A stretch of DNA of 64,000 bases from Candidatus Obscuribacteraceae bacterium. Its GTDB lineage: Bacteria > Cyanobacteriota > Vampirovibrionia > Obscuribacterales > Obscuribacteraceae. Positions 39,001 through 45,000 of this stretch are shown one piece after another. The position numbers are program-made. The DNA lies in assembly GCA_044226015.1 (NCBI GenBank), contig JBGAHS010000002.1, forward strand, positions 625,571-689,570, in the 5' to 3' direction. How positions within the stretch are numbered: position 1 is the first letter of the stretch; each line of letters opens with the position of its first letter.

Positions 39001-42000
39001 AGATTATAAAAAGCACGGGAGAGCTAACAAAAGCTGACCTCGCTACTGCAAATGGATCCGCACGAATAGGCATGTCTTCGGGAAACATCTACTGCGTGTT
39101 GACTTCGATTCAAACACGTGTACAGCTCGACCCAGATAAATGGAGTGGAGACGACGAAGCCACAAATTGGACAACCTGGCTCACAGCCTTCGACGACAAC
39201 CTCTATGCAAATTGGATTAAGAACGGCTCGGTTAACGGACAAGAGACTGTCGCAATTCGCATAAATCCGGACAGTTCAGTCGAAGTCACAAATAACAGTT
39301 TCTTCCCAGATAAAGACAATAAAGAGTCAAACTCACAACAAGTTTTCGAAGCTGCAATAGTCAAATCTTTGAATGAAACTCTGAAGATGGCAAAAGCAAT
39401 GCCAACTACAAAAAACAAATTGAAAGAAGTGCATATGTCGCTGACATTCATGCGAGATGTGAAGGCTGTTCCTCGCATCGGCAAGAACGCTTACGGCTTC
39501 GTTGCAGTCGTTGGTGACAAGGACTTCGTCACCGTTTACGAGCGCACCAGCGATGACGGACGCTTTCCAGGAATTCAAATTCTCACCGATATAGATGAAC
39601 CTGGCAAAGTTGTTCCACTAGATCAAGGTGCATTTGACCAAAAGGTAAGTGAATCAGAAAAGTAGCTGAGGCTAATCGAATTTTGCTAAAGGATCCTGCC
39701 TGGTGGCATAGACTGCCGTAAGGGAGCGCGAACCTATTTCTTTTGATAGATTCGCTCAACGGCAGAGATAGCCTGATCAAGCAAGTTTTCCTTGTTATTC
39801 ATGATCGCGTTGTAGCGATCTTTAGCGGAGCTGCGTCCCCAGAGCTTGCAGTTATCGGCAAAGACTTTATCCGCTTCCGTGCCAGGGTACTTCAAATCCT
39901 TCATTATATGTGAACTGGTTTCAGGATCGAGCGGGTACACACGCCCGTTGCTTGCCTTCTCCCAGACGAGATGACCTTTTTGCGCTTCAATATCGACCTT
40001 GTCTTGCTGTTTGACCTTGGCATCGTAGAGTTCTTTGGCGGGGTTGAACATTACGTTGTGGAGGTTTCTCAGGCGCGAGGTTTCGTATTCATTTACTTGA
40101 ACATTCTTTCCATTCACATCAAAAACTTCATCCTTCAGTCCGCCCATTTCTCCGAACTTGTTCTGCGGGCTTACGGAGATGTGCTTCACATGGCCGGCGT
40201 CCTTGCCTTTGCCCATATCAAATTCAATGTGAGGAAGGCTTGAATTGAACACCTTTCCACTTTCAGATTTGGAAGCGTGATCGCCAGCGGCTTTTAGCCC
40301 TTGCAGTACAGTCTTCAATTCTGATGGATGCTGGGTGGCGATTTGCTGCAACTCGTCTTGAAACTTGTGCTGTCCTTCATGAGCCTGGTCGCTCTTAAAA
40401 GCGTTCTTCAGGTCTTGCACTTCGGTCTTTATATAGTTTCTGTCTTGCATTTCCTCGCCCTCACTCATTCCCAATGCGTTCCCAATGCGTTCATATTAGT
40501 CAGCAAATCTGAAAAAGATCTGAGAGTTTTTGACCTTGAGATATTGGGTTACGAAAATGTCAGGTGCATTGAATAAAGTTCATAAATCCGCGACTGAGGG
40601 CAGAGCAATGGGTTCCAACGACAGACTCGAATACTCCGAATCTCCTTCTGACTCTTCAAGAGCCGATAGCACTTACGACCCAGTTGCTCTTTACCAAGAA
40701 GGCATTAGTAGCGGATATTTCGGACCCAAAGTAGGCGGTTGAGGAGGCGGCGTCTGCCCTCCAGGTGGAGGGAGCGACTACATAACTCCAGAGCAGTACC
40801 AACCAGTTTATCCAAGCGATTCGTCCCCACTACCCCCGATGAACATCTCGGGTGGAGTCATCAAACCCGAAGCAAACAAATGGGGCAGCAAATCTGAATA
40901 CATAAATGCGATCAACAAAGCTGGCTTTGACCATCAGTTGATTGATTCGGATAAAAACGAAGGCAAGCCTCAAGGCACATCTGAAGGTAAGCCAGAAGAG
41001 AATCAAGACAAACCAGAAGACAATTATAATTTCCACCAGGATGGAACATCAAAGGGCGACGCTGACCCATTCCAGTTCCACCAGGGCTCAAAAGACAAAC
41101 AAAATTCGAGCGACGGAAACAAGGGTGATTCATCCGAGAATCCAGATGGAAAAAAAGCCGAAAACTCTCCCGAAAAAGAATATCAAGACAAGTTAGCTTA
41201 CGCAGCCAAGAATGGCTTGCCAGTGGTCGTAGTCTTTGGCAATCAGGAAGCAAAAGACACGGAAAAAGCAGCGAACAACTTGCAGTCCAACATGCAATCC
41301 AAGGACGCTGTATACATTTACGCCGATACAAACAAAATTGATCCGAATTCTGACTTGGGCAAAGTCATCAGACGCAACGCGTCGAGCGGCGAAGGTCTCG
41401 GAGATTCAGGGAAGAGCGACATGAGCTTCACCGGTGTGTACACCGTTGAGAAGAAAGCTGATGGTTCACTCGGCATCGGCAAAACCATAGCAACTGTCCA
41501 TGGTGGCAGAGAAGAAATTTCTGCAATCGTGAAGGATCAACTGCAATACGCAAAACGCGGCACACTCAACCTTGGCGGAGGAGACCAGACTGCTCCACCA
41601 AATAACCCTGAGAACAAACCTAACGATCAAGACTTTCGTCCAAATCCGCAAGAGCCGAACCCAGACAAACAAAATAACCCTAACGACAACTCCAACAACA
41701 ATAACAACAACAGACCAGACGCTGATAAGAGCGATGGAAACGATCGTGAAACGTTCCAAAAACAACGTGACGAACGCTACAAACAGCGGCTCAAAGAACT
41801 TGAAGAAGTTGGTGGAAAGAAAGGATACAACCTCAAGCAATATGCACAGGGTTGGGGTCGCTTCCTTGAGCGTAATGAAGTTCCAGAAGGACCAGTGAAA
41901 GACGCTCTCAACGAATTCGGGCAGCAGATGCTGACCGGTGATTTCGATGGAAAGAAACTTGCAGAAATGATGGAAAAAGCTTCTGCAAGCAATCAACAGG

Positions 42001-45000
42001 CTTTGAATGAAGCTCTTCTTGCAGCCAATAAAGAACTCGGCAGCAGCGGATTGCGACTCAATGCAGACATCGACCCTGCAAGTGGCAAACTCAAGTCTAT
42101 TGAACTGACAGAGGCAGTTGCTTCAGGACAATCCAGAAACAGCTTGAGAATCAATAGTGATGGACAGTTCGTGTCTGGCACAGCAATGGACGTTCCAGGA
42201 GCGGCCCAGCAATTTAAGCCGATACCGATAGAAGAATTGTCCAGGCGACTGGCAAAGAAATCAGAACAAGCGGCGTGTCCGTGAAACGGCTAACCGATTG
42301 AAACCGTGAGTTTCAAAAGAAAATTGAAAGAGTAGTCTAAACCCTGAACTTCGCAGAATGCGGTGGCGAGTCAGAGCGGATGAATCAGTGTGAAGATGAG
42401 TCAGAGCGTCGACGACGATACGCTGCTAAACCCGTCAGGGGCGACGAGCCAGAAAGGGTCAACTTAGCTCTGGCAGCTTTTTAACGAATCCAAGTTGATA
42501 CATCTCTTCAAGGTCATGATTGCTAGCCTTAGCACATGTACCAAGTACAAAATCTGCAAAAGGTATCACCACGTTAAAATTCTTACTTGGATATTTGTGA
42601 TGCAACCAGTGGTATCGCGCAAGATACTTGTAGATTGGCCAATTGCTGAAACCGCGATGCTCAGGTTTGTGCATTTCGAGGTGAATCTTATTCCAAATCC
42701 AATGGTGCATGGTTGCTACAAAGACAAAAATTAGAGCGCCAGGCCAAGAGAAAATCGCAATTACAAGTGCGAAAGGAATAGCCTTTATTGGAGCCTTTTG
42801 CACTGTTAGACGAATCTCCTTGTCCTCCCCAACGGGCACGGGTTCATCAGTAAAATGTTCAGAATAGTGTTCTTTATGGTGGACGATAGCATGAGCTTGA
42901 AATGTTCGCTCAAATCTTGCAAAACTACGTCTATGCATCAAACGGCTATGCACTTGATGTTCAATAAAGGACATTAGTATGCAAGAAAAAATAAACCAGC
43001 CAAATAGCTGCAATACAAACACAGTAGACTCCAGTAAGTACGGGATTAGGCTGGTTAGTTTCCGAAATCCTATCCTCATCAAAAGAAAAGATGTAAGAGT
43101 AGAGAAACTACATGCTGCATGGGTCACGCAGCTGGGTTAACTATAATCGTCACCGCGTTTTGTGAACGCTTTTCTCATGGGATAAGCAGCACTCAACCAT
43201 AAAAGAACTCAAGAAAATCCCCCGCACCTGATCGAAGCATAGCCGAAGAACGATCTCTTGCGGGTTAACTTATTACTAGCAACACATAGCGTTACTTATC
43301 ACAAAGCGATCACCTGGTGTGAACCTAATTTTTATCAACCCGAAAAGTCACAAAAGCTCTACCGTCCGCCGAAGAGTCAGCCACACAGGAGATCTAACTG
43401 TCCACACAGGATCAAGCCATCCTATCAGATGCTGGTTGGAAGCCCGGCGCTCCCAGACGAGAAGCCCACTCAGGATCTACTCGAACCAGAAGAGATCACC
43501 ACTCAAATCTTTTTGGTTCCTGGCTGAACACTAAGAATCGAGCTGCCACCACTTAAGCTCTACCACCCGCCACAACACATGATCAAACTGCTGATTCGAT
43601 CCAACCGGCAGCGCAAAAGACGTCTAGTATGCGAACCCGCGATTTATACGACTTGCCCCGCAGAGAATCCCGAAGCCCATGCCCACTGGAAGTTGTAGCC
43701 TCCCAATTGACCAGTGACATCAACAACCTCGCCGACAAAATACAGACCTGGCACTTTTTTTGATTCCATTGTCTTTGCGGACAGCTCGTCAGTACTGACA
43801 CCGCCTCTGGTGACTTCAGCTTTCTGGTAACCGAAGTTTGCAGCAGGCACTAGTGACCACGCATGCAGTTTTCTACAAAAATCATCAAGCGTTTTGTCAG
43901 CGAGTGAATTGATTGGCCGCGAAGATTGAAATAGTTCGCAAAGCTTATCTGCAAGCCTCGCTGGCAACAACTCCTGCAATGCGTTTCGCAATTCCTTCTT
44001 GCTCTTTTGCGCCTGTAGTTCAGCCAGGAAAGCTCGCACATCAACATCTGGGCATGTGTCGATTTGAAGTGCATCGCCTGGATGCCAATAAAGAGAAGCC
44101 TGCAAAATGGCTGGTCCGCTCACGCCTGTATGAGTGAACAGCGTGTTTTCTCTAAAACTATGTTTTCGACATTTCACGGTGCTATCGAAAGATACTCCGG
44201 TTAGCTCGCCAAAGCTCTGCTTGTCTTGCGGCTTCAAATCGAAGCCAACAAGGGCAGGGTAGGTATCTTCCAACTTCAATCCGAATTGCTTTGCAATCTC
44301 GTAACCAAAACCGGTGGCTCCAATTTTCGGAATTGACAAGCCACCGGTTGCCACCACTACAGAATAAGTATGAATATCAGCATGCTCACACTGCACCACA
44401 AATCTACTTTCCTCATCAGCAGACTCTTGTCTTATTCTCTTCACCTTGGAACCAAGACGAAAACTTACTTTAGCCTTGCGACACTCCGTTACTAGCAGGT
44501 CAACAATTTGTTCTGCTGACTCATCACAGAATAACTGTCCAAGTTTCTTTTCGTGAAAGCGAATTTTGTGCGCTCGTACCAATGAAATGAAATCATTCGG
44601 TTGATATCGAGCCAGTGCTGATTTGCAAAAGTGAGGGTTAGCTGAATGATAATTTTCGGGCTTCGCGTGCAAGTTAGTAAAATTGCAACGTCCTCCACCA
44701 GAAATCAAAATCTTACGTCCGATCTTTTCCGAATGGTCAATGACAAGCACTCGCCGAAAGCGCTTCGCGGCTTCAATTGCACACATCATGCCTGCGCCAC
44801 CCGCGCCGATGACTACGACGTCTGTCTTAATAATTTCAGGTGACACCGTTCAACCGTCCAATCAACCTGACACCACTTTTGGTGCAGAGGTTTCAGAAGT
44901 ATCAATCAGCATTCGTTTTAAAATCTTCCCGGTAGAATTGCGAGGCAATGTTGATCTAAACTCCACAATGCGAGGCACTTTGTATTCAGCCATGTGCTCC

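What a model noticed while it worked through the whole genome (the two positions that open the first line are those of the whole stretch)
40608..42284. New selenoprotein family with a G-U-G-x-x-x-C-P motif, two paralogs split by the gene caller
Two gene pairs that the caller split at an in-frame TGA are single selenoprotein genes: g00541+g00542 (C1:666178-667854 +, 558 aa, Sec45) and g01132+g01131 (C3:16351-17865 -, 504 aa, Sec59). Both read ...G-U-G-x-x-x-C-P-P... in a disordered N-terminal arm, followed by a conserved alpha/beta domain (KPVVMxxGS...DAVYxYVDxDKVDPNSxLGK...FTMV) and a helical C-terminal part; no Pfam family matches. The TGA is kept in orthologs that are only 49-56% identical and in a second genus, while another genus has Cys at exactly this column, the classic Sec/Cys signature; a hairpin with an AGGU loop follows the UGA. 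This is a selenoprotein family that is not in any family library, so far seen only in Obscuri [...]
Evidence so far: Same-frame gene pairs joined by a single TGA; read-through translations. search_genomes with the read-through proteins: orthologs with exactly 1 TGA inside the match in G059 (49% id), G062 (56%) for paralog A and in G065 (56%), G060 (49%), G064 (50%) and G018 (another genus) for paralog B; G079 also has 1 TGA in its match but its column was not inspected. tblastn columns: FRG*GTQPCFP, FRG*GPVPCTP, ARG*GPRPCPP, VRG*GPVCPVP, VRG*STPVCPVP, CMG*GPRPCPSP; Cys form MGSCPGGVCP in G101. 9-sequence alignment A4: U/C59 and C64 invariant. RNAfold of the 70 nt after UGA: stem CCCUCC-AGGU-GGAGGG 17 nt after the UGA of g00541, same CC-AGGU-GG hairpin in G059 and G062. 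Sec machinery present: SelA g01331, S [...]
(Added by a program. Inside this text positions count along the whole contig: contig position 625,571 is position 1 of the stretch shown here. "Call 12" and the like, gene names such as g00115 and contig names such as C1 are that model's own, and its searches are not shown. The text may have been shortened before it was handed on; [...] marks where a part breaks off. The agent that wrote the report below was given it as the finding of a first reader that could run no searches.)

Follow-up and report, generated by a model that had tools for sequence, protein, structure and literature searches.

The report
Protein with selenocysteine at both ends
A gene that annotation cuts at two apparent stop codons very probably encodes one 561-residue protein with selenocysteine near each end of a thioredoxin-fold scaffold, an apparently uncatalogued selenoprotein family of non-photosynthetic relatives of cyanobacteria.

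Summary
Its 'stop' (42282-42284) is very probably a second Sec codon, followed by Asn-Gly-TAA (561 aa, end 42293). This TGA is kept in 21 of 21 full-length relatives, while flanking codons change silently and the codon after Asn-Gly varies (TAA 9, TAG 8, sense 4). All 21 carry a bacterial-SECIS-type hairpin, mostly beyond the true stop (98.6% paired, 5 of 7 pairs compensatory). The first TGA has its own hairpin with the loop G also at +25, aligns with Cys in one genus, and matches a family-wide C-x4-C arm. SelA, SelB, SelD and tRNA-Sec are present; TGA is otherwise a normal stop. The middle domain is a thioredoxin fold without CxxC (Z 12.2); the last domain matches no solved fold. The family was found in one bacterial family only. 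Most likely it is a thiol-disulfide relay or chaperone whose chemistry sits on two flexible Sec arms (inferred, about 0.5). The same genome holds two more uncatalogued families with C-terminal Sec tails. No expression or selenium data.

The parts
40596..40600 (+). Shine-Dalgarno-like GAGGG, 7 nt before the ATG
   Evidence: GAGGG also precedes the start in G003 and G005
40608..42293 (+). Full coding sequence, 561 aa plus TAA, with Sec45 and Sec559
40608..40739 (+). N-terminal arm upstream of the first TGA (residues 1-44), annotated as a separate short gene
   Evidence: differences at codon positions 1/2/3 = 38/27/96 over 16 codons in 10 ortholog pairs; low pLDDT
40740..40742 (+). TGA read as Sec45, first residue of the U-x4-C motif (partner Cys50 at 40755-40757)
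   Evidence: TGC/TGT in G059, G044, G009
40757..40772 (+). SECIS 1, in the reading frame: 6-bp stem, AGGU loop, loop G at +25 from the U of UGA
40833..40928 (+). Conserved segment (residues 76-107) that abuts the thioredoxin-like domain in paralogs; contains the annotated ATG 40839, which is not conserved
41166..41567 (+). Thioredoxin-fold domain without CxxC (residues about 187-320; A-K-D-T at the active-site position)
   Evidence: VIA-align Z 12.2, rmsd 1.8 A, 100 residues to 6zmu_A
41568..41807 (+). P/N/D-rich flexible linker and charged helix (residues 321-400)
41820..42275 (+). C-terminal alpha+beta domain (residues about 405-556), confident model, no fold match
   Evidence: pLDDT 87.9, pTM 0.84; best Z 3.7; no Foldseek match
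42276..42290 (+). C-P-U-N-G tail; TGA 42282-42284 read as Sec559
   Evidence: TGA in 21 of 21 full-length domain matches
42291..42293 (+). True stop codon TAA
   Evidence: TAA 9, TAG 8, sense codon 4 of 21 at this position
42298..42316 (+). SECIS 2, in the 3' untranslated region: 7-bp stem, CGUGA loop, loop G at +25
   Evidence: 98.6% of cells paired, 5 of 7 pairs compensatory, 0 of 500 shuffles reach the paired fraction

Best explanation
One gene, 40608-42293, is translated through two UGA codons by SelB/tRNA-Sec, each with its own hairpin whose loop G lies 25 nt from the U of the UGA; the second hairpin lies past the stop codon (shown by comparative evidence: about 0.93 for Sec45, 0.90 for Sec559). 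The 561-aa product has a disordered arm with U-x4-C, a thioredoxin fold that has lost its CxxC, a flexible linker, a novel alpha+beta domain and a C-P-U-N-G tail (shown by models and alignments). Inferred mechanism: a cytoplasmic thiol-disulfide relay or redox chaperone. The inactive thioredoxin domain binds client proteins, as the b domains of protein disulfide isomerase do (recalled). The selenolate of one arm attacks a client disulfide or oxidised cysteine and is resolved by its neighbouring Cys to a selenenylsulfide; the other arm, or the cell's thioredoxin system, re-reduces it, as the flexible tails of mammalian TrxR and FrnE do. The confidence given is for the whole statement, mechanism included.
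For: Sec559: TGA invariant in 21 of 21 while Cys, Pro, Asn, Gly codons change silently and the stop switches or moves; hairpin in 21 of 21, covarying; among 70 GTDB matches to the 21-nt tail pattern the hairpin follows 14 of 14 family hits and 1 of 56 chance hits. Sec45: 21 of 21 loci with the TGA inside the arm have the hairpin, G at +25 in 18; Cys at the column in 3 genomes, nested inside the TGA clade and without the hairpin; C-x4-C in 19 of 41 homolog arms with two or more Cys against a shuffled mean of 4.0, maximum 11 in 500. Two known selenoproteins of this genome (SelT/W/H, ArsC-like) have the same hairpin type at +26 and +27; it fits the published consensus (PMC13188914). Redox role: thioredoxin fold; 35 of 131 strong homologs carry a downstream CxxC; in the Cys-form genus a canonical WCGPC thioredoxin stands where the C-P-U domain stands here, and that domain is a separate gene, suggesting interchangeable redox modules; no signal peptide or membrane helix in 10 members tested; precedents for tail motifs: FrnE CxxxxC (PMC8945050), TrxR GCUG (PMC10840350).
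Against: No expression, proteomic or selenium data. No Cys form of U559 was found, so it lacks a Cys/Sec pair. The Cys form of U45 is one evolutionary event (3 genomes, one genus). Single hairpins are not unusually stable (z -1.39 and -1.68; paralog B -0.42), and the first overlaps conserved P-P-G-G-G codons, so its covariation is weaker (77.4% paired with the 3 Cys forms included). 11 of 33 N-terminal TGAs in the wider family, all with U as residue 3, have no near hairpin. SelA was found in only 16 of the 21 assemblies with the tail (the other five are 64-93% complete). Nothing identifies a client or a reductant: no neighbours are conserved across genera, there is no flavin or NADPH domain, and the full-length model does not place the arms (pTM 0.37). 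Basic C-terminal tails in 57 of 131 homologs against 21% of this genome's long ORFs and Sec tails on exported proteins of the same genome hint at a non-cytoplasmic role.
Confidence: 0.5

Rival explanations
1. Both Sec are real, but they serve as covalent handles: the termini form Se-S or Se-Se links to each other, to other copies or to Sec-tailed pilin-like and TPR proteins, building a scaffold or an exported or surface structure rather than turning over substrates.
For: Reactive pairs sit at opposite ends of a long, half-disordered protein; the same genome has C-terminal Sec tails on a prepilin-like protein and on a signal-peptide TPR-like protein, whose relatives often end G-G-G-U-R-R with no partner Cys; basic tails are enriched in the family; two VirB4-like genes below the family cut-off exist.
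Against: No signal peptide or membrane helix; thioredoxin fold and canonical thioredoxin fusions point to catalysis; the genes are not clustered.
Confidence: 0.2
2. Both Sec are real and form a soft-metal or metalloid binding clamp (Hg, As, Cu, Zn): U-x4-C and C-x-U supply four ligands for sequestration or sensing.
For: CU-type motifs are proposed to bind heavy metals in the SAO system (10.1101/2022.07.06.499078, passages); an ArsC-like selenoprotein is in the genome.
Against: No metal transport or resistance genes are conserved nearby; C-x4-C with small residues resembles redox tails; paralogs swap the tail for a thioredoxin active site.
Confidence: 0.17
3. Only Sec45 is real; TGA 42282 is the true stop and the hairpin behind it is a terminator or stability element.
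For: No Cys form at this column; all 22 database proteins with this domain end at C-P, as gene callers would make them; only two residues follow.
Against: A real stop should interchange with TAA/TAG, but TGA is 21 of 21 while the later stop does interchange; Asn-Gly is kept with silent changes and the frame runs 20 residues further in two genomes, with the hairpin then inside it; no T-tract and no terminator call there; loop G sits at the SECIS distance.
Confidence: 0.07
4. The TGAs are ordinary stops (short upstream peptide plus a downstream gene, or a broken gene), or TGA is reassigned genome-wide to Trp or Gly.
For: Release factor 2 was not found in this assembly; M-G-TGA members without a hairpin could be start-stop leaders.
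Against: Frames after TGA close as fast as after TAA/TAG (median 14 and 15 codons) and coding density barely changes (0.849 and 0.860); RF2 passes the cut-off in 4 of 8 genomes of the genus, including two that carry this gene; the only TCA-anticodon tRNA among 72 is tRNA-Sec; the annotated downstream ATG is not conserved; TGA aligns with Cys.
Confidence: 0.03

Closest known systems
Bacterial selenoprotein genes read by SelB with a bSECIS (consensus in PMC13188914)
   Same: UGA followed 16-37 nt later by a small apical loop with G then G/U; SelA, SelB, SelD, tRNA-Sec present; Cys homologs exist for U45.
   Different: Two UGAs 514 codons apart, each with its own hairpin; the second hairpin lies beyond the stop codon; family absent from the review's 119-entry table.
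SaoC (Cys-Sec-COOH) and KCU-star/DUF466 selenoproteins (10.1101/2022.07.06.499078)
   Same: Sec at the extreme C-terminus beside a Cys, with the SECIS necessarily past the stop codon. So a bacterial 3'-UTR SECIS is not new in itself.
   Different: Those end C-U; here C-P-U-N-G on an unrelated domain, plus a second Sec; no NCBIfam match; here the hairpin is supported by covariation in 21 sequences.
Mammalian thioredoxin reductase GCUG tail (PMC10840350; E. coli expression with a 3'-UTR SECIS, PMC9595596)
   Same: Flexible C-terminal Cys/Sec pair; the natural gene layout mirrors the engineered UGA-codon-stop-SECIS construct that works in E. coli.
   Different: No FAD or NADPH domains; C-x-U rather than C-U; no homology.
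FrnE of Deinococcus (DsbA family with C-terminal CxxxxC; PMC8945050)
   Same: Thioredoxin-fold protein with a four-residue-spaced Cys pair on a flexible arm.
   Different: FrnE keeps an active CxxC and has the arm at the C-terminus; here the domain is inactive, the arm is N-terminal and its first Cys is Sec.
TsoB (NF045694, UxxxxU, two Sec) and Trx7/PDZ selenoprotein (NF041199)
   Same: Four-residue spacing (TsoB) and Thioredoxin_7-type domains.
   Different: The window protein does not match either model; paralogs match only through their canonical thioredoxin domain, far below cut-off (48.5 of 805; 19.4 of 300 bits).
Protein disulfide isomerase b domains and CnoX/YbbN-type chaperedoxins (recalled, not tested)
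   Same: Catalytically inactive thioredoxin fold combined with separate redox centres or helical repeats.
   Different: No sequence relationship shown; redox centres here are Sec arms.

Membership tests
Bacterial selenoprotein gene | In-frame UGA conserved in homologs | tested here: met
   U559: 21 of 21; U45: 17 of 20 A-type loci with the Sec column inside the arm, other 3 Cys
Bacterial selenoprotein gene | bSECIS: small loop with G[G/U], 16-37 nt after UGA | tested here: met
   both hairpins, G at +25; the 51-nt fold of SECIS 2 is -7.3 kcal/mol, just short of the -7.5 in the published model
Bacterial selenoprotein gene | SelA, SelB, SelD, tRNA-Sec in the genome | tested here: met
Bacterial selenoprotein gene | Cys homolog at the Sec45 column | tested here: met
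Bacterial selenoprotein gene | Cys homolog at the Sec559 column | tested here: not met
   none among 21 loci, 22 database proteins or a GTDB pattern scan; this feature is usual, not obligatory
Bacterial selenoprotein gene | Selenium in the protein | not testable with these tools
   needs labelling or mass spectrometry
Thioredoxin fold superfamily | Thioredoxin fold | tested here: met
   Z 12.2, rmsd 1.8 A over 100 residues; Thioredoxin_7 in 13 of 22 members at E up to 1, best 4.9e-5
Catalytic thioredoxins / Trx-fold selenoproteins (UxxC, CxxU) | CxxC, UxxC or CxxU at the start of the active-site helix | tested here: not met
   A-K-D-T aligns with W-C-T-D-C of 3fk8; no CxxC in 22 aligned members
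SaoC / KCU-star C-terminal selenoproteins | Match to NF040734 or NF033934; ending C-U | tested here: not met
   no NCBIfam match at E 0.01; tail is C-P-U-N-G
TsoB (NF045694) | Score above cut-off; rhodanese/DsbD fusion; UxxxxU | tested here: not met
   no match for the window protein
FrnE / DsbA family | Active CxxC in a DsbA-like domain plus C-terminal CxxxxC | tested here: not met
   no CxxC; only weak profile hits to DsbA (E 0.007)
Any solved fold, for the C-terminal domain | Structural match | tested here: inconclusive
   best Z 3.7 among 48,161 chains; no Foldseek hit

The most novel reading that the evidence does not exclude
This gene is one part of an unrecognised, lineage-wide system in Obscuribacteraceae that puts selenocysteine on the flexible ends of large unrelated proteins (U-x4-C arms, C-P-U and G-G-G-U-R-R tails; cytoplasmic, pilin-like and signal-peptide proteins) as a general covalent or redox tag, using SECIS elements in the 3' UTR at scale and, for M-G-U starts, decoding UGA at codon 3 without a nearby hairpin.
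Probability: 0.25. Interest if true: 0.87.

Novelty: new variant of a known kind. Interest (0 to 1): 0.74.

Why it matters
It adds a selenoprotein family with an architecture not in the current catalogue: Sec on both termini around a catalytically dead thioredoxin and a domain with no known fold. It shows that C-terminal Sec is easily missed (all 22 database proteins with the last domain end one residue before it). It supplies a natural, covariation-supported set of bacterial SECIS elements beyond the stop codon, side by side with in-frame ones at the same distance, which makes SelB spacing rules directly testable in E. coli. It points to a hidden selenoproteome in the non-photosynthetic sister group of Cyanobacteria (SelA in 86 of 107 genomes of the order), which the two catalogue papers I searched do not mention.

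Tried and rejected
Pfam and NCBIfam on the read-through protein: no family. Rfam over 39500-43500: one chance match. Foldseek on the full model: thioredoxins on top but none at E <= 0.001. C-terminal domain: no fold match; ESM Atlas hits (DUF6612, score 0.90-0.91, low recognition) taken as weak leads only; the middle domain gave thioredoxin-like clusters under 0.9. Complex prediction of middle domain with C-terminal domain: no verdict. RNA runs: none was listed. Synteny: neighbours shared only within genera. Search for a Cys form of the tail in GTDB: 24 pattern hits, none a relative. A covariance model of tail plus hairpin finds only this locus in the genome. A first relaxed genome scan timed out and was redone (110 of 10,684 TGAs with a hairpin, most of them chance). 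TGA reassignment rejected. Terminator reading of hairpin 2 rejected. Correlation of Cys forms with loss of Sec machinery rejected: the Cys genus has SelA. Literature searches found no description of this family; 'Obscuribacterales' with 'selenocysteine' gave 0 papers, 'Melainabacteria' with 'selenoprotein' 4 unrelated ones. Haft and Tolstoy 2025 was not held; Deng et al. 2026 (candidate selenoproteins from groundwater genomes) and all supplements were not seen and could list members.

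
Full report
OBSERVATION. The frame opened by ATG 40608 has a TGA at 40740-40742 (codon 45, G-U-G-G-G-V-C-P) and a second TGA at 42282-42284, followed by AAC GGC TAA. 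A GAGGG lies 7 nt before the ATG, as in two orthologs. The annotated ATG 40839 is not conserved. Paralog B on contig C3 reads 504 aa with U59; a profile search finds no third member in the genome.

MACHINERY AND CODE. The genome has SelA, SelB, SelD (Cys form) and tRNA-Sec, the only TCA-anticodon tRNA among 72. TGA is otherwise a stop: frames after long ORFs close after a median of 14 codons (TGA, n=1268) or 15 (TAA/TAG, n=3197), and coding density is 0.849 with TGA as stop and 0.860 read through. Against this, release factor 2 was not found in this 92%-complete assembly; it passes the cut-off in 4 of 8 genomes of the genus, among them G003 and G005, which carry this gene.

FIRST SEC. Of 52 distinct loci in hand with the middle domain, 33 have an upstream in-frame TGA with a Met before it and a Cys within 8 residues; the spacing is U-x4-C in 29. 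In the 21 where the TGA lies inside the arm (17 A-type, 4 B-type) a hairpin with loop [A/C/G]G[G/U] follows in 21, with the G at +25 in 18, +28 in 2 and +22 in 1. The other 12 begin M-G-U or M-A-U; 11 have no near hairpin and 1 a weak one, which I cannot explain. The remaining 19 loci have no such TGA or are cut by a locus end. The 16 codons before the TGA differ at positions 1/2/3 by 38/27/96 in 10 ortholog pairs, a coding pattern (pairs are not independent). Three genomes of one genus have TGC/TGT at the TGA column and lack the hairpin; on a tree of the middle domain they nest inside the 19-row A clade (support 100/100), so this is one Sec-to-Cys change, in genomes that keep SelA. Pair counts on 14 sequences including these three give 77.4% paired and 3 compensatory pairs, 3 of 500 shuffles. 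Independently, among 139 cluster representatives from a search of 1.84 billion proteins, 41 have two or more Cys before the domain and 19 of them show C-x4-C, against 4.0 in shuffles (maximum 11 in 500).

A profile of the C-terminal domain matches 22 of 107 genomes of the order; 21 matches are full length and each contains one TGA, 4 are partial and lack the tail. In the 21, the codons read Cys TGC 14/TGT 7, Pro CCT 11/CCC 5/CCG 5, TGA 21, Asn AAC 17/AAT 3 or His 1, Gly GGC 20/GGA 1, then TAA 9, TAG 8 or a sense codon 4. A stop codon would be expected to interchange; here the TGA does not and the later one does. All 21 have a hairpin with the loop G at +24 to +27, after the stop in most and inside a 20-residue extension in two. 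Over 21 sequences 98.6% of cells pair, 5 of 7 pairs show compensatory change (17 cells), 0 of 500 shuffles reach the paired fraction, and slid controls give 25-59% (relatedness inflates such counts). An exact 21-nt pattern for the tail hits 70 places in GTDB: 14 family members, all titled Obscuribacterales, Obscuribacter, Melainabacteria or Cyanobacteria MAGs, 14 with the hairpin; 56 chance hits, 1 with it. Background in this genome is 12 of 1730 (TGA) and 13 of 3926 (TAA/TAG), and the same scan recovered two known selenoproteins, a SelT/W/H and an ArsC-like protein, with G at +26 and +27. The geometry fits the published bacterial model (PMC13188914; parts 2-4 of 10 and passages read). Against: no Cys form was found; single hairpins are not more stable than shuffles to a notable degree; SelA was found in 16 of the 21 assemblies (G005 has tRNA-Sec).

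ANATOMY. The full model (pLDDT 60.7, pTM 0.37) leaves 1-25, 38-86, 106-185 and 320-378 disordered. Residues 187-320 are a thioredoxin fold (Z 12.2, rmsd 1.8 A over 100 residues; Foldseek best E 0.009; Thioredoxin_7 in 13 of 22 members). The WCxxC of a solved disulfide isomerase aligns with A-K-D-T: the active site is gone. Residues 405-556 fold confidently (pLDDT 87.9, pTM 0.84) with no match above Z 3.7. No signal peptide or membrane helix was seen in 10 members. The middle domain occurs in 64 of 103 other genomes of the family and 0 of 297 genomes of other families of the class. Architectures vary: 35 of 131 strong homologs have a downstream CxxC, often a canonical thioredoxin. In the Cys genus the A ortholog ends in such a thioredoxin and the C-P-U domain is a separate gene. 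Neighbours are not conserved across genera.

MECHANISM. Shown: two recoded UGAs with their hairpins, the domain layout, the lost CxxC. Inferred: the inactive thioredoxin domain binds clients; the U-x4-C arm and the C-x-U tail cycle between selenol/thiol and selenenylsulfide and pass electrons, as the CxxxxC tail of FrnE (PMC8945050, passages) and the GCUG tail of TrxR (PMC10840350, passages) do. The swap of the C-P-U module for a thioredoxin active site is the best internal argument. No client, reductant or location is known; I give the mechanism 0.5, a cross-linking or exported role 0.2 and metal binding 0.17.

COMPARISON. No Pfam or NCBIfam family matches, and no entry of the 119-family table has this layout; nearest by motif are TsoB (UxxxxU) and several CxU families. 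A SECIS beyond the stop is precedented: SaoC ends UGA-UAG with a hairpin behind it, and KCU-type proteins end in Sec (10.1101/2022.07.06.499078, passages); an engineered 3'-UTR SECIS works in E. coli (PMC9595596, passages). Neither the review nor BSepDB (PMC13326102, passages) names Cyanobacteria, Melainabacteria, Vampirovibrionia or Obscuribacterales in its main text. Ten searches found no description; Haft and Tolstoy 2025, Deng et al. 2026, the BSepDB contents and supplements were not seen. The PDI and CnoX analogies are recalled.

WIDER PICTURE. The same hairpin scan exposed two further families in this genome. A 730-aa prepilin-like protein on C7 ends C-C-P-TGA-TAA; 7 of 30 loci read have this ending with a hairpin at +23/+24, and 23 end C-P-C, 21 of them without a hairpin. 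A signal-peptide, TPR-like protein on C5 ends G-G-G-C-TGA-His-TAA; of 30 loci read (of 565 matches in 106 of 107 genomes), 23 have TGA as first stop and 17 of these a strict hairpin, mostly after a Gly-rich tail. These labels (prepilin-like, TPR-like) are my reading of the sequences; Pfam gave no family.

VERDICT. New variant of a known kind; interest 0.74.

Noticed in passing
L085:4646-6841 (+) = G000 C7:207645-209840: 730-aa prepilin-like protein ending C-C-P-TGA-TAA with a CGUGA-loop hairpin at +24; 7 of 30 homolog loci have this ending with hairpin, 23 end C-P-C. Sec would be the last residue; no Pfam or NCBIfam family.
   Followed up: partly
L239:1761-2264 (+) = G000 C5:194761-195264: Signal-peptide, TPR-like protein ending G-G-G-C-TGA-His-TAA with a hairpin at +23; relatives in 106 of 107 genomes of the order, many ending G-G-G-U-R-R-stop with a strong AGGUU-loop hairpin (17 of 30 loci read).
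   Followed up: partly
L035, L037, L040, L043, L044, L047, L048, L093, L023, L113, L118, L168: Paralogs that start M-G-TGA or M-A-TGA, most behind a Shine-Dalgarno-like sequence, keep G-P-R-P-C-P-like residues with silent changes but have no hairpin at the usual distance (11 of 12). Unexplained.
   Followed up: partly
G000 C8:209217 (+): TPR-like protein fused to a thioredoxin with W-U-G-P-C; similar fusions in G017 and G012.
   Followed up: no
L086:2730-3077 (-) and L087:2277-2636 (-): Known-type selenoproteins split or missed at TGA: SelT/SelW/SelH (CxxU) and ArsC-like (UxxC).
   Followed up: yes
G000 C4:377308 (-): TGA after a 214-aa ORF followed by a perfect 6-bp AGGUU-loop hairpin at +35 and a 22-residue continuation, no Cys nearby; possible further Sec.
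   Followed up: no
L036:1857-2795 (+), L038:1818-2741 (+): In G059 and G044 the C-terminal domain is a stand-alone protein whose frame continues 20 residues past C-P-U-N-G, with the hairpin inside the frame.
   Followed up: yes
P0017-P0155: 57 of 131 strong homologs end in a basic tail (3 or more R/K in the last 10 residues) against 21% of this genome's long ORFs; could be an export or targeting signal.
   Followed up: no
whole genome G000: Release factor 2 not found in the assembly although TGA acts as a stop; two VirB4-like genes below cut-off, one with internal TAA stops.
   Followed up: partly
window 37365-38678 (+): 437-aa protein with a long array of G-G-x-M-N-G-S-Q-M-G-N-M-type repeats after a signal-like start; no Pfam match.
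   Followed up: no
window 47427-48029 (+): ORF with about five near-identical 26-residue repeats.
   Followed up: no
window 42459-43127 (-) and 39734-40474 (-): Convergent neighbour is fatty acid hydroxylase-like (PF04116, E 1e-5, below cut-off); divergent neighbour is a 246-aa unknown. Neither is conserved beside orthologs.
   Followed up: yes
G000 C1:354647-363865, C1:957299-967003, C6:580640-591499, C11:565975-576351: Several 3000-3600-residue Gly-rich repeat proteins with a shared C-terminal domain.
   Followed up: no
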